From a virus (taxonomy: Duplodnaviria; Heunggongvirae; Uroviricota; Caudoviricetes): 56,004 nucleotides of DNA. The notes beneath the pieces are model-generated. The model saw nothing but the letters and a program-made list of their open reading frames with translations. It made no database searches and had not been told where the DNA came from. Within the stretch, counting starts at the first letter, position 1. Every line of letters begins with the position of its first letter. Shown in pieces: positions 35,521-45,856 of the stretch. The stretch is taken from IMG/VR virus record IMGVR_UViG_2744054632_000003; one strand, written 5' to 3'. The translations under genes were made by a program, and so were the position numbers.

Positions 35521-35882
35521 ACATCCCGGTTTCTTCCACCATCGCACCGGAAAAGCGACTATGAGGGTAACCCTGCGTCTGTCAGCACAGTAAAACCCGG
35601 TGTGCATCGTTTTTGATTATTCCCGCACACTCACGCAGAAGGAATTCCCCGTCGGGCTACGGTCATGGTTAATGCGGGAATACGGCGACGATACAGCGCA
35701 GCTAAAAGGGTAATAGACGGATAGACCGGTTTATTTCATTCCACAGGATTCTGAGTGTCCCCAACTTCCTCCAATAGTCTGAGCGTACACCTATATAGTT
35801 TTAATTTTCATCAATCCATTTAACTATCGTTTAATTGTTGTCACATAGGATTCTGCCGTTTTTAACAATGCAGGATAATAAG

Positions 35883-36176
35883 ATGAAAAAAATGTTGTTT
35901 TCTGCCGCTCTGGCAATGCTTATTACAGGATGTGCTCAACAGACGTTTACTGTTGGAAACAAACCGACAGCAGTAACACCAAAGGAAACCATCACCCATC
36001 ACTTCTTCGTTTCGGGAATTGGACAGGAGAAAACTGTTGATGCAGCCAAAATTTGTGGCGGCGCAGAAAATGTTGTTAAAACAGAAACCCAGCAAACATT
36101 CGTAAATGGATTGCTCGGTTTTATTACTTTAGGCATTTATACTCCGCTGGAAGCGCGTGTGTATTGCTCACAATAA
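35883..36176 (+). CDS. bor: Bor serum-resistance lipoprotein
   Basis: MKKMLFSAALAMLITGCAQQTFTVGNKPTAVTPKETITHHFFVSGIGQ matches lambda Bor; lipobox LITGC. Confidence 0.9.
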   Translation: MKKMLFSAALAMLITGCAQQTFTVGNKPTAVTPKETITHHFFVSGIGQEKTVDAAKICGGAENVVKTETQQTFVNGLLGFITLGIYTPLEARVYCSQ

Positions 36177-36207
36177 TTGCATGAGTTGCCCATCGATATG
36201 GGCAGCT

Positions 36208-37763: not shown

Positions 37764-38939
37764 ATGGATATAACTTGTTTAGAATGTGGCAATGTTCTTG
37801 ACGACCCAACTGTAGCTTGCGATAAATGCGGTGCCACGCCTCATGTTGTAGTGCTGGGCAAACAATCGTACTTTCCTATTGGTGCTGTAACAGCAAATCT
37901 TGAAAAAAATGATTCAAGAGCATTTGATTATCGATTAGGTGAAGTTTGGGATCTAAAAAATGAAGTCACATCTGAATTCATAACCAGAATTGAGAAAAAA
38001 TTTAGCCGAAAAAACAAATTTCATAACTTCCTAGACTCAGATCACAACCCTTCATCCATTCCTACGATCCTAAAAAAATACATTAATAAGAATAATGAAT
38101 TCATTGATTTATCTAGAGCTATAATAGAGAAGCTTAAACATAATGCTAATAACGAATCGAGAGTTGCCCAACTTCAGGGGGGGAGCGTTGTTTTCATCCA
38201 CTATAAGTCTACCGAACCAGAGGATTTGGGGAAACTTCTAATCGTAATGGTTGATAAACAAAGCGCCTATGACTTTGATTCGGATAAGTTGACCCCAACA
38301 AGATTAAATCCAATTAATACCGATGCCTTACGGCAGGCTGCGATGTTCGATTTAACTTTATTCGAAGCCAGTTATCCAGAAAACAAGGGTGACTCATATG
38401 TACATTTCTTGCAAGGTAAATCTAAAAGCGATTTTTTCAAAGACTCATTAGGTTGCCGACATGATTCGGACAATAAAAGAAGCATTCAGCAATTATTCAG
38501 TGCTATAGATATTTTTGCTAGTAAAAACTCACTCGGTCGTGTACTGCGTGATACTATTGACAATGAAGTTAAATCCTTACTGGAAAAAAAATCAAAAGAT
38601 AAACACGGAAATAAGTCCGTTAAGATAGAGGATATTTCAAAAATAATTGACTCATGCCTGACTGATTCACACAAATGTAAGGGAACGTTTGTCGATTTTG
38701 TTAATCTTAATGGTTTCCAGATTGACCCTCAATTTGAACCAACTCCTAAAGCAGCTGAAAGCGCGCTTACAATTGAAGTGGCAGATAACGACAATAATTT
38801 TAAGTTGAAAATAATGCGTGGAGCTATTGGAGACGAAAAGTCAAATAAGCCTGTAATTCTCACTGACAACAAATGCGAAATTGTGATAAAATTGAGTCAG
38901 GCAAATTATGATGAACTCAAAAGATATAGAGACAGCTAA
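37764..38939 (+). CDS. zinc-ribbon + NdpA/YejK-like (NA37 family) protein, AT-rich moron gene 1
   Basis: N-terminal CLECG...CDKCG ribbon; GGSVVFIHYKS...LLIVMVDKQSAYDFD...YVHFLQGKSKSDFFKDSLGC aligns with recalled YejK GGIVLFCHYRY...LLVAVLNNLSSMRVN...[23 protein letters not shown]. Confidence 0.5.
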   Translation: MDITCLECGNVLDDPTVACDKCGATPHVVVLGKQSYFPIGAVTANLEKNDSRAFDYRLGEVWDLKNEVTSEFITRIEKKFSRKNKFHNFLDSDHNPSSIPTILKKYINKNNEFIDLSRAIIEKLKHNANNESRVAQLQGGSVVFIHYKSTEPEDLGKLLIVMVDKQSAYDFDSDKLTPTRLNPINTDALRQAAMFDLTLFEASYPENKGDSYVHFLQGKSKSDFFKDSLGCRHDSDNKRSIQQLFSAIDIFASKNSLGRVLRDTIDNEVKSLLEKKSKDKHGNKSVKIEDISKIIDSCLTDSHKCKGTFVDFVNLNGFQIDPQFEPTPKAAESALTIEVADNDNNFKLKIMRGAIGDEKSNKPVILTDNKCEIVIKLSQANYDELKRYRDS

Positions 38940-38941
38940 TA

Positions 38942-40156
38942 ATGACAATTGCTGATGACTTATCAAGATTAGCGCAGATTATTAACGGAGCCTCAAGCAG
39001 AGTTGAGGGCTACTACACTGTCATAAGTCTTGAAGAAAGCATTGTTATTGTAAATAGTTCTGAAATAATTAGACTGTTACAATCTATAGGTTATAAAAAG
39101 GCAACAACCTGCATCGAAAATAATGAAATTTGGCTAGATCGCCAAGCTTCATCTTGGGATGATGCTATAATTTATGAGAATGTTGAGTCTTTTTGGTCTA
39201 GAGTAAACACCCAAAACGCTCTTCCGAAAAATTATATCATCGGAACGCCGTTAATACTCCCTACTTCTAAGAATGAAAGCATCGAAAAAATCCATATTTT
39301 CTTTATGTGGAAAGATATCCTTTCATTAATTGCTGATCATCATAACAGTGACTGCTCTGTCTTATTTTTCACCAATGAAGACAAAAGTTATACAGTCGAA
39401 CTCACGCATTTTTTACAATATAGCGAGATTAATCGCTTATCGAACTCGTCTCTTAAATATGAAATTATAAAGGAGCTTCTCGACACAATAAAAATCAATG
39501 ATTTACACAAAAGCGAGCGCAAGCTCGTTATACGCTCAGCCATAAACGAAGTATTTAAAGCAAATGGTACGTTCAATTTCTTTGACTTGCTTAACTCTAC
39601 TGAACTCGTCAGGAAAAAATATGATGAACTATATGAGATTTACACAAAGAGGTTTTCTGTAAATAAAATTCTTAACGAACTCGATGAGAAAAATCTTGAG
39701 TTCACGAGTAAAATTAACGAATTCATATCATCTAATCAGACAAAAGCATTGACTATTCCCGGTGCATTAATAGCAGCTGGTGGCTTAGTGAAGGCTAATG
39801 AAACAACCGAAGCAATATTGATTATCGCAGGACTTTGGATGATAAAAAAAGTCAATTACATTTCTATTGAGATATTCAATGAAACATTCGACAACTTACG
39901 TTCTCGAGTGGAGTCCGCTTTCGATAAGTATTTAAAGTTTGAAGAAAATAAAGAAATCAAAGATAATGCAGATAGTATTAAGAGTAGCATTACAGGTTTG
40001 ATTGATAAAGCTAAAAAAAGGATGAGAACTGTTAAATATCTCGCATCAGCCATGTTTTATGGAGGCCTTATTTACGTTGGATATAAACAGTTCCCAGTCT
40101 TTTTTGAAAAATCGGCAGTAAATCTATTTTATTTTTTATGCCATACTATAAGCTAA
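38942..40156 (+). CDS. membrane protein with C-terminal TM helices, AT-rich moron gene 2
   Basis: 404 aa; starts 3 nt after gene 1 stop; hydrophobic segments ALTIPGALIAAGGLV, AILIIAGLWMI, ASAMFYGGLIYVGY; no recognised domain. Confidence 0.5.
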   Translation: MTIADDLSRLAQIINGASSRVEGYYTVISLEESIVIVNSSEIIRLLQSIGYKKATTCIENNEIWLDRQASSWDDAIIYENVESFWSRVNTQNALPKNYIIGTPLILPTSKNESIEKIHIFFMWKDILSLIADHHNSDCSVLFFTNEDKSYTVELTHFLQYSEINRLSNSSLKYEIIKELLDTIKINDLHKSERKLVIRSAINEVFKANGTFNFFDLLNSTELVRKKYDELYEIYTKRFSVNKILNELDEKNLEFTSKINEFISSNQTKALTIPGALIAAGGLVKANETTEAILIIAGLWMIKKVNYISIEIFNETFDNLRSRVESAFDKYLKFEENKEIKDNADSIKSSITGLIDKAKKRMRTVKYLASAMFYGGLIYVGYKQFPVFFEKSAVNLFYFLCHTIS

Positions 40157-41526: not shown

Positions 41527-41981
41527 TACGCCTCCTGCTTGTCACGGAGCAGCTGGAACTCGCAGCTCTGCGGAATAGTCAGGTGGCAGCCAATATTCAC
41601 CGCCCAGGCTTCAACCTTACACAGGAAGACATACATCTCTCCGGTATCAAGATCGGAGGTATGGCGTAACGACTGGATAGTGGTGATATCACCGGTTACG
41701 ACATCAACCAGGTCTTTGGTTTCATAACCGAGATATGTGTGTTTGAGAGCATCTTTTACCCAAGCTGGAGTGGCGAACGTTTTACCCCTGTTGATGAGGT
41801 ATTCACTGATTTCGCTGTACCACATGTGGCTGAGTGCATTCTGGGAAAGACTGCGTTTCTCACGCCACGGTTTAAGCACCATGCGAAAGCATTTGCCCTC
41901 CTCCAGATAAGGCTGGATCTGCCGACCGATAGCGGTGAAGTTACCGCGATGTAATTTGATGCCATCTTGTGGGAGATTCAC
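41526..41981 (-). CDS. ybcN: YbcN / NinB-like protein
   Basis: [58 protein letters not shown] matches DLP12 YbcN. Confidence 0.85.
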
Positions 41982-42177
41982 GCTTCACCTCCGCAGAGGT
42001 CAAACGCTGGATGCAAAAAATCGCAGGTGCATCTCTGCATCTGTGAAGGGAGAAGAGAGTTTGGATTGTATGTGCGCATAAACGTCCCCGTTTAGCGCAG
42101 AAGTCACCGGAGTTGTTCAGGCTCCGATGACATGATTATGGCAAAATGATTATGTAAAATCAAAAGCCAAAAAACAA

Positions 42178-43122
42178 TTATGGTTTATTTTCTAGCTCTG
42201 ATTTTTTGAAAGCTTCTATCAGACGATTAGCATCTTCTGTACCACCAGGAAGCACGTTTGATTTTTTAAGAATATACGGTGGGAACTTTGTGGTTAAATA
42301 TTCATGCTTAAACCATCTACGAAACTCTGACAATGCAGAATCAGGATAGGCATTAATGATCTGAGGATTGGAACTTGCCTGAAGAAAATCTTCAGGGTAA
42401 TAATGCTCACAGTCTACTCTTTCTCCAAATTCTGTTGCTAACCCCTTTGCTTTCCAGTGACGCGCCCAGCAAGAACCAACACTGCCATCAGGTACGGTAT
42501 GCTGATTAATCGCTAATCCAGCATTGATGAGATCTACCATCATACCTGCAATTTCATTAAATATAATGAAATACCCATCAGGTATGGTTCCCTTATCTTT
42601 TAATAAAGATACTCTGTCATGGTAATGCCTCCACGGGTCCTCCGGTTGATATTTTAGCGCCTCGTATATAAATGTCTTGAGGCCTTTTTTAGCAAGCTCT
42701 CTGTAAGATCTAATTGCAGTCTCACTTTCTGCTTGTTTTGCTTCAAAGGCATAGTATTCAAGTATAGCCATGCATACAACATCTGGATAAGCATGGTACT
42801 CAACACCATTTCGAATTATTGGTATATAAAGTTTTTCATCTGTAAAACCTTCATTAAGAAGATATGTACCAATAAAAGTCATTCTTCCTTTTTTGAAAAT
42901 ACCGTTCTCAACAGATTGAGCCCACTCATCGGTAATTTCCTTGATTCGCAAACGCTGAACACCACAAACATTTGCCAACCCATTCTGAGTAAGGTACGGA
43001 ATTCCGTTATCGAGTACCCCCATTTCTATACCGTTAATGACAGCCTCTTGCTTAACATCTAAGTCTAAAGGTATGGATCTGAGGGAGGTAGTTCTCTGTT
43101 GTGCCATTTTTGATCCTATCAA
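42178..43122 (-). CDS. AT-rich moron protein with possible N-terminal KilA-N-like DNA-binding domain (BstA-like defence candidate)
   Basis: 314-aa ORF with AT-rich codons; N-terminal segment INGIEMGVLDNGIPYLTQNGLANVCGV resembles KilA-N/Bro-N pattern; no catalytic motif recognised. Confidence 0.4.
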   Translation of the reverse strand: MIGSKMAQQRTTSLRSIPLDLDVKQEAVINGIEMGVLDNGIPYLTQNGLANVCGVQRLRIKEITDEWAQSVENGIFKKGRMTFIGTYLLNEGFTDEKLYIPIIRNGVEYHAYPDVVCMAILEYYAFEAKQAESETAIRSYRELAKKGLKTFIYEALKYQPEDPWRHYHDRVSLLKDKGTIPDGYFIIFNEIAGMMVDLINAGLAINQHTVPDGSVGSCWARHWKAKGLATEFGERVDCEHYYPEDFLQASSNPQIINAYPDSALSEFRRWFKHEYLTTKFPPYILKKSNVLPGGTEDANRLIEAFKKSELENKP

Positions 43123-43311
43123 TTTGAATTCATTGAAAAAATTAGGTGTTCCCTATGCATTAGAACACTCATCATAGTAACCCCACTCGTTTGTGAAAAA
43201 AACTAATTTCACAATCAGTTAACTCTCAAAATAACTGATATTCATACTCTCGCTATCCCATATATAGACATCCTTGTTTTAATACAACACTCATGGCTGG
43301 CGGCTATACTC

Positions 43312-43629
43312 CTAACAGATTTGACGCAAATACGGCAATACTCGACTCCACTTATCATCCTGCCACGGCTGAAGTTTTACATGTGCCGTTTCTCGGACGA
43401 GGATTGCTCGCGCTCTGTTGAGTATCTGGGGATATTCTTGCTCGATGGAAGTGAAGTGACCAGCTTCACCATGCTCCGCATCCTGAAGAAGATGAGTAAC
43501 GTTCTGGTAGGCAATTAACATCACATTCCCTGCTCGCCATAACCAGGCGAGTGTGCAAAGTTCGTTATCAGTGAATTGTTTTGTGATTGGGGATTGTTGA
43601 ACTGCTAGAACGAGAACGCCAGCATCCAT
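43312..43629 (-). CDS. hypothetical protein (105 aa)
   Basis: ORF with no recognised family. Confidence 0.35.
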   Translation of the reverse strand: MDAGVLVLAVQQSPITKQFTDNELCTLAWLWRAGNVMLIAYQNVTHLLQDAEHGEAGHFTSIEQEYPQILNRARAILVRETAHVKLQPWQDDKWSRVLPYLRQIC

Positions 43630-43740
43630 TGGCAGTCCCTATAGTAAAACCATAGCTCAGGACGCTTCGTTCAGGATAGATAATTTTATTGTACTTACCT
43701 AACTTTCTTACTATAGCACGGTTGAAAAAGTGATTATTAC

Positions 43741-45267
43741 TCAAAAATAAACCTCACCATCAACCATATATTTGAGAGTACTTATCGCCTGCTGGGCGGA
43801 TATTGTTTTCATTAAAGGATAGTGTTTAAAAACAATGCCATTCATAAAATAGATATCACAGGTTTTATTATCTGTATTGATTATGATTTTTTCGAATGTT
43901 TTATAGGCAAGTGTACGACATAGCTCTCGCCCATTTTTACTGGTTAAGTCAATAGCATGAAAATCACCAAGTGAGCTCACCGCTTTACTCTTCAAAGTTT
44001 TTAATGATACAGAAGCCCTTCGTAATTCCTTATCTAATACTCTGATTTTTTCTGCTATAGCGGTAACTTCAGGCGCAACAGATAATGCAGCAATTAAATT
44101 ATTAATTTTCATCTGGAGCTCAATAATTTTCAACTCTAAAGTTTCATTAGCATCTTTCTTGTTTTCAACTGGTTGGATTTTACTACAATTAAAAAGCAAC
44201 TCATTAATGATATTATAATCAACCAAATCTCTCTTTATTGATGGCCTGTCACATCGATGCAGTCTTCTCATCGGACAAACATAATAGCCATGCAAACTTC
44301 CAGATACCGCATGAACAATCATGGTATTACCACAAGCCTCGCACTTCATAACTGTTCGAAGTAGATTTATCAACATAGGATTTTTGCTACTATTGCTAAT
44401 ACCAAAAGGTGCCAACCGAATTTCCTGCACAGCGTAAAACAAATCATCTGATATGACTCTGGGATAATAGCCAGCGATTTCACTTATTCCTTTACCTCTT
44501 GCACGATATGAAGGTACGCATATACCTATCAGAGCTTTATTCGCTAATAATTTTTCAATTACAGAAGGTCCCCATGCACTTTCTTTTCCTGAGAAATTCT
44601 TTACAGCATGATCATTTAAATACTTGGCTATTGCATTCAATGAGCGCCTTTCCATCCTGAGTTTAAAAATTAGCTCAATAGTTTTCACCCTGTCGGGGTC
44701 TGGAACAAAAGCCGTTCTTTTGTCATCTAAGGAGAGCCATCTCGGACAAGACGCCGTCATAATCGTGCCTGACTCCAGTGCATCCTGCCGTTTTTTCTTC
44801 CATGATAATTTAACCCGACTTGACTTTATCTCGCTTTCTTCATTTGCCCTTTGTGCTATAAGTATGGCTTTTATTAATGAATATGGATCATTCAAAGAGT
44901 CAATATTATAGACTGTATTATCGCAAAGAGTTATAACATCAATACCGTGATTCAAAATCAATTTCAGACGCTCAATCGCTTCACCGACTTTTTCTCTTGA
45001 AAGTCTGTCCAGACTTTCAACTAACAATGTAGTTCCTGGCAATATATAACCATGCTCTATAGCATCTAAAAATTCCGAAAAAGCTCCTGATTGTGCATGC
45101 TTTCCTTTGAATGCACTTAATCCTAAATCTTCATATGTTATGGTATCAAGATAATAATCACTATTTACCTTTAACCATTCAGCAATAAGTCTTCTCTGTC
45201 GGTTTAATGAGTCGCCAGACATCTGACCTGGTGATGAAAATCGCATATATGCTATGGCTTTTTTCAT
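43741..45267 (-). CDS. ybcK: large serine recombinase (YbcK-like)
   Basis: N-terminal resolvase motif AIAYMRFSSPGQ...GDSLNRQ with catalytic Ser context, plus recombinase domain and Cys-rich zinc ribbon; 508 aa as in DLP12 YbcK. Confidence 0.8.
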   Translation of the reverse strand: MKKAIAYMRFSSPGQMSGDSLNRQRRLIAEWLKVNSDYYLDTITYEDLGLSAFKGKHAQSGAFSEFLDAIEHGYILPGTTLLVESLDRLSREKVGEAIERLKLILNHGIDVITLCDNTVYNIDSLNDPYSLIKAILIAQRANEESEIKSSRVKLSWKKKRQDALESGTIMTASCPRWLSLDDKRTAFVPDPDRVKTIELIFKLRMERRSLNAIAKYLNDHAVKNFSGKESAWGPSVIEKLLANKALIGICVPSYRARGKGISEIAGYYPRVISDDLFYAVQEIRLAPFGISNSSKNPMLINLLRTVMKCEACGNTMIVHAVSGSLHGYYVCPMRRLHRCDRPSIKRDLVDYNIINELLFNCSKIQPVENKKDANETLELKIIELQMKINNLIAALSVAPEVTAIAEKIRVLDKELRRASVSLKTLKSKAVSSLGDFHAIDLTSKNGRELCRTLAYKTFEKIIINTDNKTCDIYFMNGIVFKHYPLMKTISAQQAISTLKYMVDGEVYF

Positions 45268-45523: not shown

Positions 45524-45856
45524 TTAATGTGGTGTGCTTCGTGACAATAAATTAATAACCAACACACCGGCACAAATCAACATCATGCCTATAATGGCTG
45601 GCAGGTCCAGCCGTTGGCCGAAAAATCCCCATGACAGTAAGCTAATCAGGACAATACCGACTCCTGACCAGATAGCATAAGCAATCCCTGTAGGAATATA
45701 AGCCAGCGTCTGAGCTAATAACCAGAATGATGCACAATAACAAATAATTGTACCAACAGATGGCCATAACCGTGTAAAACCTTCTGAAAACTTCATTAAG
45801 GTTGTACCAATGACCTCTGCAAGTATTGCACCACCAAGATAAATATAAGGGTTCAT
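45524..45856 (-). CDS. emrE: small multidrug resistance efflux transporter EmrE
   Basis: MNPYIYLGGAILAEVIGTTLMKFSEGFTRLWPSVGTIICYCASFWLLAQTLAYIPTGIAYAIWSGVGIVLISLLSWGFFGQRLDLPAIIGMML matches EmrE. Confidence 0.95.
   Translation of the reverse strand: MNPYIYLGGAILAEVIGTTLMKFSEGFTRLWPSVGTIICYCASFWLLAQTLAYIPTGIAYAIWSGVGIVLISLLSWGFFGQRLDLPAIIGMMLICAGVLVINLLSRSTPH

What the first reader, a model, noticed from the sequence alone, without database searches (positions are those of the whole stretch)
42178..43122. AT-rich moron upstream of ybcN with a possible KilA-N-like N-terminus (BstA-like defence candidate)
Between the ybcK recombinase and the nin region lies a 314-aa AT-rich gene with no obvious enzymatic motif. 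Its N-terminal segment resembles the KilA-N/Bro-N DNA-binding pattern, and its size and prophage location recall BstA-type abortive-infection proteins. This rests on weak motif similarity only.
Basis: inference. Interest (0 to 1): 0.6.

Follow-up and report, generated by a model that had tools for sequence, protein, structure and literature searches.

The report
BstA prophage anti-phage defence gene
The AT-rich gene is a full-length member of the published BstA family of prophage abortive-infection defence proteins, so the gene is already known, but its start region carries a pair of direct DNA repeats that looks like its own "self-immunity" (aba) element, and most BstA loci have such a pair.

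Summary
The ORF is real. It lies on the minus strand at 42178..43122 from a TTG. The likelier start is ATG 43107, giving 309 aa. GC is 0.39 against 0.49 for the window.

It is a full-length BstA:
- PADLOC BstA, E 3.8e-121.
- PHROG 6287, E 1.9e-136.
- 40% identity end to end with the characterised BstA of Salmonella phage BTP1.

The identical protein, WP_000068668.1, in the same ybcK–ybcN context, is one of the 72 homologues listed by Owen et al. 2021. The gene is therefore already known, though this allele is untested. The KilA-N cue was not reproduced by the Pfam or hhalign profile tests. Fold comparisons gave only weak similarity.

The gene sits in a 1.6-kb cassette that replaces ybcL–ybcM of K-12 DLP12. 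It is not next to the repressor.

New here is a direct repeat pair, AGGGAACACCT and AGAGAACTACCT, 57 bp apart and straddling the start codon. This mirrors the mapped 63-bp aba of BTP1, whose repeats are 56 bp apart. Across 67 non-redundant BstA loci, 48 have a strong repeat at exactly 56 or 57 bp. Any other spacing gives 0–4. The repeat sequence differs between clades. I read the pair as the cognate aba; this is inferred, not shown.

The parts
42178..43107 (-). bstA homologue coding sequence, 309 aa (WP_000068668.1).
   Evidence: ORF. PADLOC BstA, E 3.8e-121, and PHROG 6287, E 1.9e-136, both full length. 40% identity to BstA-BTP1. RefSeq start and RBS.
43086..43154 (-). Candidate cognate aba (anti-BstA) DNA element, 69 bp, from -47 to +22 relative to the ATG. 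It is bounded by two direct repeats.
   Evidence: Same architecture as the mapped 63-bp BTP1 aba. Repeat 1 is the only conserved block in otherwise unrelated upstream flanks. Family-wide spike at 56/57-bp spacing. Function is inferred.
43144..43154 (-). Repeat copy 1, AGGGAACACCT. Non-coding, 47 nt before the ATG.
   Evidence: It is the only exact match to AGRGAACACCY in the 56-kb window.
43086..43097 (-). Repeat copy 2, AGAGAACTACCT, in codons 4-8 of bstA. It has one extra base relative to copy 1, as in the Klebsiella-type relatives.
   Evidence: Start-to-start distance from copy 1 is 57 nt.
43171..43199 (-). Promoter-like site, TTTTCA-17-TATGAT. The -10-like hexamer is conserved as TATCAT/TATTAT/TATGAT, 17-18 nt upstream of copy 1, in 9 of 12 subclade sequences (shifted or absent in three).
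   Evidence: Consensus scan (the number of such sites in the region is no higher than in shuffles). Conservation of the hexamer. Function is inferred.
42141..43731 (-). Cargo cassette of 1,591 bp, GC 0.395, holding the antirepressor fragment and bstA. It replaces ybcL-ybcM of K-12 DLP12.
   Evidence: blastn against MG1655: 97% homology ends at 43732 and resumes at 42140.
43312..43629 (-). 105-aa ORF holding only a P22AR C-terminal domain. It is probably a remnant of an antirepressor gene, inside the same cassette.
   Evidence: Pfam PF10548, E 7.7e-14. PHROG antirepressor families. It is a pseudogene with an internal stop in NCTC8623.

Best explanation
The gene encodes a BstA-family abortive-infection protein carried as cargo by a near-complete lambda-like prophage at the DLP12 site of E. 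coli.

Shown here:
- It is a full-length family member with two domains. The N-terminal part (about residues 15-150) is a beta-hairpin plus helix-turn-helix DNA-binding domain. The C-terminal part is a BstA_C domain.
- It lies in its own AT-rich cassette.

From Owen et al. 2021 (work on BstA-BTP1, BstA-Ec and BstA-Kp), applied to this allele by homology:
- The protein is made in the lysogen.
- It gathers at the replicating DNA of an incoming phage and blocks phage DNA replication.
- The infected cell dies without releasing progeny.
- The resident prophage escapes its own BstA through a short cognate DNA element, aba, at the 5' end of the gene. The element works only when amplified.

Inferred here:
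- The cognate aba of this allele is the 69-bp stretch 43154..43086, bounded by the repeats AGGGAACACCT and AGAGAACTACCT, 57 bp apart.
- The repeats are probably paired binding sites for the BstA N-terminal domain. Multiplied by prophage replication, they would titrate or switch off the protein.
- Copy 1 lies about 17 nt downstream of a conserved -10-like hexamer, so the same sites could also autoregulate the gene.
For: Family membership:
- PADLOC BstA, E 3.8e-121, full length. PHROG 6287, 'BstA abortive infection system', E 1.9e-136.
- 40% identity over the whole length to BstA-BTP1 and 38% to a BstA-Ec-type protein.
- PF26567 BstA_C is precomputed for the protein and 118 of the 119 other listed homologues (the exception is the 187-aa truncated form P0039). 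Newer RefSeq records name it 'BstA C-terminal domain-containing protein'.
- The identical protein in NCTC8623 is in Table S1 of the BstA paper.

Structure and context:
- The AlphaFold model has mean pLDDT 84.5 and shows an N-terminal beta-beta-beta-alpha-alpha...beta-beta-alpha unit.
- The prophage has int, exo/bet/gam, a cI-like repressor, O/P, Q, lysis, terminase, head and tail genes.

aba candidate:
- The BTP1 aba runs from -29 to +34, has terminal CCCGCC repeats 56 bp apart, and loses function when either repeat is mutated.
- In the window and its relatives, the upstream flanks are unrelated except for the motif AGRGAACACC(C)T. A second copy lies 57 nt downstream, inside the first codons.
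- In 67 non-redundant loci, 35 show at least 8 of 10 matches at spacing 57 and 13 at spacing 56. Every other spacing from 30 to 90 gives 0-4 loci.
- Repeat sequences differ by clade but match within a locus: 8.99 of 12 within a locus against 6.17 of 12 between loci.
- A BstA-Ec-type locus that matches the paper's cloning primer has AGCAGATCCCT/AGCGAATCCCT at 57 bp.
- In at least 22 of the 41 strongest pairs, copy 1 cannot encode the same peptide as copy 2. Either an in-frame stop intervenes or the spacing is 56.
Against: - No experiment exists on this allele. BstA homologues differ in phage range.
- The gene is not downstream of the prophage repressor, which is the arrangement the paper calls strikingly conserved. 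Expression in the lysogen therefore depends on an unverified promoter. The consensus scan finds no more promoter-like sites in this region than in shuffles.
- The window's own repeat pair is imperfect: 8 of 12 matches ungapped, 10 of 11 with a one-base gap. Alone it would not be significant.
- The aba elements of BstA-Ec and BstA-Kp were never mapped finely. Only BTP1 ties repeats to function.
- The paper saw no loss of BstA foci with high-copy aba, so direct binding is unproven.
- The prophage has pseudogenes in the tail-fibre region and may not be inducible.
- Truncated and IS1-interrupted copies exist in some strains.
Confidence: 0.85

Rival explanations
1. The repeat pair is not a self-immunity element. 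It could be an ordinary autoregulatory operator for bstA transcription. In clades where the reading frame stays open over both copies, it could be a by-product of a short peptide repeat in the N-terminal tail.
For: - Copy 1 lies 17-18 nt downstream of a conserved -10-like hexamer.
- In 13 of 41 loci the frame is open across both copies, for example QPAT...QPAT in L010.
- Only BTP1 links such repeats to aba function.
Against: - In BTP1 the same kind of repeats, at the same spacing and place, are necessary for aba function, and aba works as DNA.
- In at least 22 of 41 loci, copy 1 cannot encode the same peptide as copy 2.
- Operator and aba roles do not exclude each other.
Confidence: 0.25
2. 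The gene is an inactive passenger in a decaying DLP12-type prophage. It is intact by chance or recent arrival, and gives no defence in its native host.
For: - The tail-fibre region of the prophage has several pseudogenes.
- The neighbouring antirepressor ORF is a fragment.
- Truncated (187-237 aa) and IS1-interrupted alleles occur.
Against: - The full-length ORF is at least 99% identical in about 110 complete E. coli genomes from varied hosts.
- All invariant family residues listed are, by construction, present in the window protein, which is the first sequence of that alignment.
- The model folds with high confidence.
- The promoter-like hexamer, the RBS and both repeats are kept.
Confidence: 0.1
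3. The protein is a KilA/Bro/antirepressor-type regulator of the prophage's own development, not a defence protein.
For: - Weak structural neighbours include antirepressor, Bro, KilA-N and Rha-type phage regulators (Foldseek BFVD, E 1e-3 to 0.2).
- It lies beside an antirepressor fragment.
Against: - No KilA-N, Bro-N or Ant profile match.
- Full-length matches to BstA models. The C-terminal half is the BstA_C domain, not KilAC or AntA.
- Three BstA proteins with about 40% mutual identity all gave defence.
Confidence: 0.04

Closest known systems
BstA-BTP1 (ST313-td, STMMW_03531) of Salmonella phage BTP1, with its aba element (Owen et al. 2021, PMC8585504)
   Same: - Same family over the full length: 40% identity, 309 against 307 aa.
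- Same two-domain layout.
- Prophage-borne.
- A pair of direct repeats 56-57 bp apart straddles the start codon.
   Different: - The repeat sequence differs: AGRGAAC(N)ACCT against CCCGCC.
- The element is shifted about 17 nt upstream relative to the ATG: -47..+22 against -29..+34.
- The gene lies in a nin-region cassette between ybcK and ybcN with its own putative promoter, not downstream of cI.
- This allele is untested.
BstA-Ec (E. coli NCTC10963, E4V89_RS07420) and BstA-Kp (K. pneumoniae Kp52.145)
   Same: - Same family.
- Enterobacterial prophage cargo.
- A BstA-Ec-type locus also has a 57-bp-spaced repeat pair.
   Different: - Only 38% identity to the BstA-Ec type.
- BstA-Ec lies between the repressor and N.
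- Immunity is cognate-specific, so cross-protection is not expected.
KilA-N (PF04383), Bro-N and APSES DNA-binding domains
   Same: - The N-terminal domain has the beta-hairpin then helix-turn-helix then beta-hairpin order.
- Weak Foldseek hits to KilA-N and Bro proteins.
- The BstA paper reports a 'KilA-N(-like)' remote match.
   Different: - No Pfam KilA-N or Bro-N hit in 43 members at E<=10.
- hhalign against the P1 KilA family gives probability 0.2%.
Lambda RexAB and other repressor-linked prophage Abi cargo
   Same: Prophage-encoded abortive infection expressed in the lysogen.
   Different: No sequence relation, a different genomic slot, a single protein, and self-immunity through DNA.

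Membership tests
BstA (prophage abortive-infection family, Owen et al. 2021) | Full-length sequence match to BstA family models and to a characterised member | tested here: met
   PADLOC PDLC02356, E 3.8e-121, residues 15-309 against 5-291 of 292. PHROG 6287, E 1.9e-136, 10-313 against 2-303 of 304. 40% identity, E 5e-77, to BstA-BTP1.
BstA (prophage abortive-infection family, Owen et al. 2021) | Two-domain layout: an N-terminal DNA-binding domain (BTP1 residues 32-147) and a C-terminal BstA_C domain, with the boundary near residue 155 | tested here: met
   The alignment to BTP1 is collinear over both halves. PF26567 BstA_C is precomputed. The AF2 model has mean pLDDT 84.5, an N-terminal unit up to about residue 150, and a loop at 151-159.
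BstA (prophage abortive-infection family, Owen et al. 2021) | Carried by a prophage | tested here: met
   It lies inside a lambda-like prophage at the DLP12 site. Relatives were found on IMG/VR viral contigs.
BstA (prophage abortive-infection family, Owen et al. 2021) | Location immediately downstream of the prophage repressor (frequent, but not universal) | tested here: not met
   The cI-like S24 repressor is about 5.7 kb away. The gene lies in the ybcK-ybcN cassette.
BstA (prophage abortive-infection family, Owen et al. 2021) | Cognate aba DNA element at the 5' end of the locus, with terminal direct repeats | tested here: inconclusive
   A repeat pair with the right architecture is present at 43154..43086. 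It fits a family-wide 56/57-bp rule. The anti-BstA function could not be tested.
BstA (prophage abortive-infection family, Owen et al. 2021) | Abortive-infection phenotype with a block of phage DNA replication | not testable with these tools
   This needs phage challenge of an expression strain.
KilA-N domain (PF04383) | Significant profile match to the KilA-N model or to KilA-N proteins | tested here: not met
   hmmscan with Pfam on the window protein and on all 43 members at E<=10 lists no KilA-N. hhalign of A1 against the P1 KilA family A2 gives probability 0.2%. Both alignments have low diversity, so sensitivity is limited.
KilA-N domain (PF04383) | KilA-N/APSES-type fold | tested here: inconclusive

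The most novel reading that the evidence does not exclude
[quoted passage not shown] Its two arms would be the recognition sites of the cognate BstA DNA-binding domain and would co-evolve with it. If so, the cognate aba of any BstA, including this one at 43154..43086, can be read from sequence. The specificity code between the N-terminal domain and the repeat could then be studied directly. The held literature maps aba only in BTP1 and does not report this rule.
Probability: 0.55. Interest if true: 0.55.

Novelty: already known. Interest (0 to 1): 0.35.

Why it matters
The gene itself adds little. It is one more E. coli prophage, in about 2% of complete genomes, carrying a published defence family. 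This protein already appears in the original homologue table and would be picked up by tools that use PADLOC's BstA model.

Two points are useful:
- This allele shows that bstA travels as a self-contained cassette, with a -10-like box, the repeats and the gene. It can sit outside the immunity region, here in a swap site of DLP12-type prophages.
- The repeat rule gives a testable sequence-level prediction of the cognate anti-BstA element for hundreds of BstA variants. How aba DNA silences BstA is the main open question left by the original study.

Tried and rejected
- **Pfam KilA-N/Bro-N.** hmmscan on the protein and on 43 homologues found no KilA-N. Only sub-threshold HTH families appeared (HTH_Crp_2, Phage_CII).
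- **hhalign against a P1 KilA-family alignment**: no N-domain match.
- **PDB sequence search**: only chance-level hits.
- **afdb50 fold library**: not available.
- **Hairpin around repeat copy 1** (GTGTTC...GAACAC): RNA fold z-score -0.2, and no consensus structure in 12 subclade sequences. Rejected as a structured element or terminator.
- **Rfam on the whole window**: no hit.
- **Other copies of the repeat motif in the 56-kb window**: none beyond chance.
- **Repeats first flagged by the repeat finder** inside the gene (TCCRTACCTT at spacing 77; TACCTnnCTCAGA at spacing 94): not conserved in relatives, so treated as chance.
- **Same gene as BstA-Ec?** No. They differ in length (309 aa against 298-301 aa for the BstA-Ec type, depending on the start used) and share only 38% identity.

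Full report
**Observation**

The window holds an uninterrupted minus-strand ORF at 42178..43122 (TTG start, 314 aa). The sequence shows an ATG at 43107 with an AGGA 6 nt upstream. RefSeq annotates this 309-aa form as WP_000068668.1. Close homologues begin at the equivalent ATG. I therefore take 42178..43107 as the gene.

GC is 0.389 for the gene, 0.488 for the window and 0.490 for the adjoining ybcN..quuD block. The neighbours on the same strand are:
- a ybcK-type serine recombinase at 43741..45267;
- a 105-aa ORF with only a P22 antirepressor C-terminal domain at 43312..43629;
- then ylcH, ybcN, ninE, ybcO, rusA, ylcG and a Q antiterminator.

**Identity**

- The PADLOC BstA model matches residues 15-309 against model positions 5-291 of 292, E 3.8e-121.
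- PHROG 6287, 'BstA abortive infection system, replication inhibitor', matches end to end, E 1.9e-136.
- tblastn against phage genomes finds BTP1 st313-td/BstA at 40% identity over 99% of the protein. BLASTP gives E 5e-77.
- A BstA-Ec-type protein from E. coli 2012C-4431 is 38% identical.
- The large protein search returned 1,250 homologues, and 119 of the 120 listed carry the precomputed PF26567 (BstA_C). Recent RefSeq records name the protein 'BstA C-terminal domain-containing protein'.
- Table S1 of Owen et al. 2021 (PMC8585504) lists E. coli NCTC8623 LR134234 4557005-4557922 among its 72 BstA homologues. That locus encodes the identical WP_000068668.1 in the same ybcK / antirepressor-fragment / bstA / ylcH / ybcN order.

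The gene is thus an already catalogued BstA homologue that has not been tested experimentally. It is not BstA-Ec, which Table S1 gives as an 897-nt hit (298 aa); PGAP annotates the type locus L002 as 301 aa.

**KilA-N question**

The BstA paper reports a 'KilA-N(-like)' N-terminal domain from remote-homology methods. I could not reproduce this at the profile level.
- Pfam hmmscan gives no KilA-N or Bro-N hit for the protein, or for any of 43 aligned family members at E<=10. Only weak HTH families appear.
- I built a KilA family alignment from phage P1 KilA. hhalign against the BstA alignment gave probability 0.2%, an 18-column HTH match to the KilAC part. Both alignments have low diversity, so this test is not very sensitive.

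My conclusion is a DNA-binding domain in the broad KilA-N/Bro-N/APSES structural neighbourhood. Membership of KilA-N is not demonstrated. No catalytic fold was recognised for the C-terminal domain.

**Genomic setting**

The window is 100% identical over the 1.8-kb stretch compared (41900..43700) to E. coli chromosomes such as NZ_CP029747, whose coordinates and annotation were then mapped onto the rest of the window. The element is a lambda-like prophage at the DLP12 site. It has int, exo/bet/gam, an S24 repressor, cro-like, O, P, ren, emrE, ybcK, the cassette, nin genes, Q, lysis genes, terminase, portal, head and tail genes through J and lom. The tail-fibre region has several pseudogenes.

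Against K-12 DLP12, 97% homology stops at 43732 and resumes at 42140. So 42141..43731 (1,591 bp) replaces ybcL-ybcM. About 110 of 5,426 complete E. coli genomes carry the gene at 99% identity or more, and 109 also share the flanks. A few carry truncated or IS1-interrupted copies.

Unlike BTP1 and BstA-Ec, where bstA follows the repressor, this copy lies about 5.7 kb from the repressor.

**The aba candidate**

In BTP1 the anti-BstA element is 63 bp, from -29 to +34. It acts as DNA, needs high copy number, and depends on CCCGCC repeats at its two ends. Each BstA has its own cognate aba.

I aligned the 5' regions of the window gene and of relatives with 76-92% protein identity. The upstream flanks are unrelated except for the block tAGGGAACACC(C)TAA, about 47 nt before the ATG. 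A second, direct copy lies in codons 4-8. The start-to-start distance is 57 nt in every locus.

In the window the copies are AGGGAACACCT (43154..43144) and AGAGAACTACCT (43097..43086). The extra base in copy 2 is shared with Klebsiella-type relatives.

I then anchored all fetched loci on the conserved MGVL..G.PYL codons and scored direct repeats at every spacing from 30 to 90.
- In 25 loci, 17 had at least 8 of 10 matches at spacing 56 or 57. Any other spacing gave 0-2.
- After adding 80 IMG/VR loci and removing redundancy, 67 loci remained. Of these, 35 scored at spacing 57 and 13 at spacing 56. Any other spacing gave 0-4.
- Copy 1 nearly always lies 126-134 nt before the anchor.
- The repeat sequence varies by clade: AGAGAWCACCC, CAGCAGGCCGCC, GGTCACCACC, CCCGCACCCC, GCCCGCCACCC and others. 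Within a locus the copies match at 8.99 of 12 on average, against 6.17 of 12 between loci.
- BTP1's mapped repeats belong to the same class. L009 has GCCCGCCACCC twice.
- A BstA-Ec-type locus, which contains the paper's cloning primer, has AGCAGATCCCT/AGCGAATCCCT 57 bp apart.

A peptide-repeat explanation fails for at least 22 of the 41 strongest pairs. In those, either an in-frame stop separates copy 1 from the gene or the spacing is 56. In some alpha- and beta-proteobacterial loci both copies lie in an open frame, which is a caveat.

The motif occurs nowhere else in the window beyond chance. The Discussion of Owen et al. does not describe this rule. I found no later mechanistic BstA paper in the held library.

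**Mechanism**

Shown: family membership, domain layout, the cassette and the repeat architecture.

Taken from the literature by homology: constitutive expression in the lysogen, co-localisation with replicating phage DNA, a block of phage DNA replication, abortive infection, and DNA-based cognate self-immunity.

Inferred: that 43154..43086 is this allele's aba; that the two repeats are binding sites of the N-terminal domain and are titrated by prophage replication; and that the conserved -10-like hexamer (TATGAT, 43176..43171), found 17-18 nt upstream of copy 1 in 9 of 12 subclade sequences, is the cassette's promoter.

A hairpin around copy 1 was tested and rejected.

**Verdict**

The added value is a testable prediction of its aba element and a family-wide repeat rule.

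Noticed in passing
window 37764..40156 (+): A second defence system lies between the Q antiterminator and the holin. It is a two-gene, AT-rich (GC 0.349) pair that matches NCBIfam NF053868 DS1_1 'nucleoid-associated anti-phage protein' (E 2.1e-135, YejK-like) and NF053869 DS1_2 (E 2.8e-112), both above cut-off. PADLOC v2 has no model for either gene. From the NCBIfam model names, DS-1 appears to be a system from the DefensePredictor study (PMC13092281), which validated predicted systems and reports a YejK nucleoid-associated domain as newly implicated in defence. RefSeq calls the second gene 'hypothetical'.
   Followed up: partly
window 43312..43629 (-): A 105-aa ORF holds only the P22AR C-terminal domain (Pfam E 7.7e-14) and has no N-terminal antirepressor domain. 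It is a pseudogene with an internal stop in NCTC8623. It is probably a relic that travelled with bstA in the cassette.
   Followed up: partly
window 42141..43731 against K-12 DLP12 ybcL-ybcM: This is a clean cassette swap at a fixed slot of DLP12-type prophages, with 97% identical flanks. A 14-bp tandem repeat (ATGATTATGGCAAA/ATGATTATGTAAAA, 42132..42159 on the + strand) spans the downstream junction and could mark the recombination point.
   Followed up: partly
L007-L010 and other alpha/beta-proteobacterial loci; proteins P0045-P0120: Many homologues are called as 341-346 aa, with an N-terminal extension that covers repeat copy 1. At least L007 has a strong AAGGAG-N7-GTG start at the position of the enterobacterial start. 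Some of these extensions may therefore be over-called ORFs.
   Followed up: no
L011, L015, L016, L018, L020, L021 (about -135..-105 nt from the MGVL anchor): In several alphaproteobacterial bstA loci, repeat copy 1 lies inside a short inverted repeat, for example GTTGAG...CTCAAC or CAGCACCTTAAGGTGCTG. The meaning is unknown. The analogous hairpin in the window was not significant.
   Followed up: partly
E. coli genomes H50, H51; proteins P0039, P0122, P0125: Some strains carry truncated (187-237 aa) or IS1-interrupted copies of this bstA allele. This suggests occasional loss of function.
   Followed up: no
window ~35880..36180 and ~45524..45856 (from RefSeq annotation of the identical record): The same prophage carries other cargo: iss/bor (serum-survival lipoprotein) next to the lysis genes, and emrE (SMR efflux) next to ybcK. 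It also carries a YdaT-domain gene and an N6-adenine methyltransferase.
   Followed up: no
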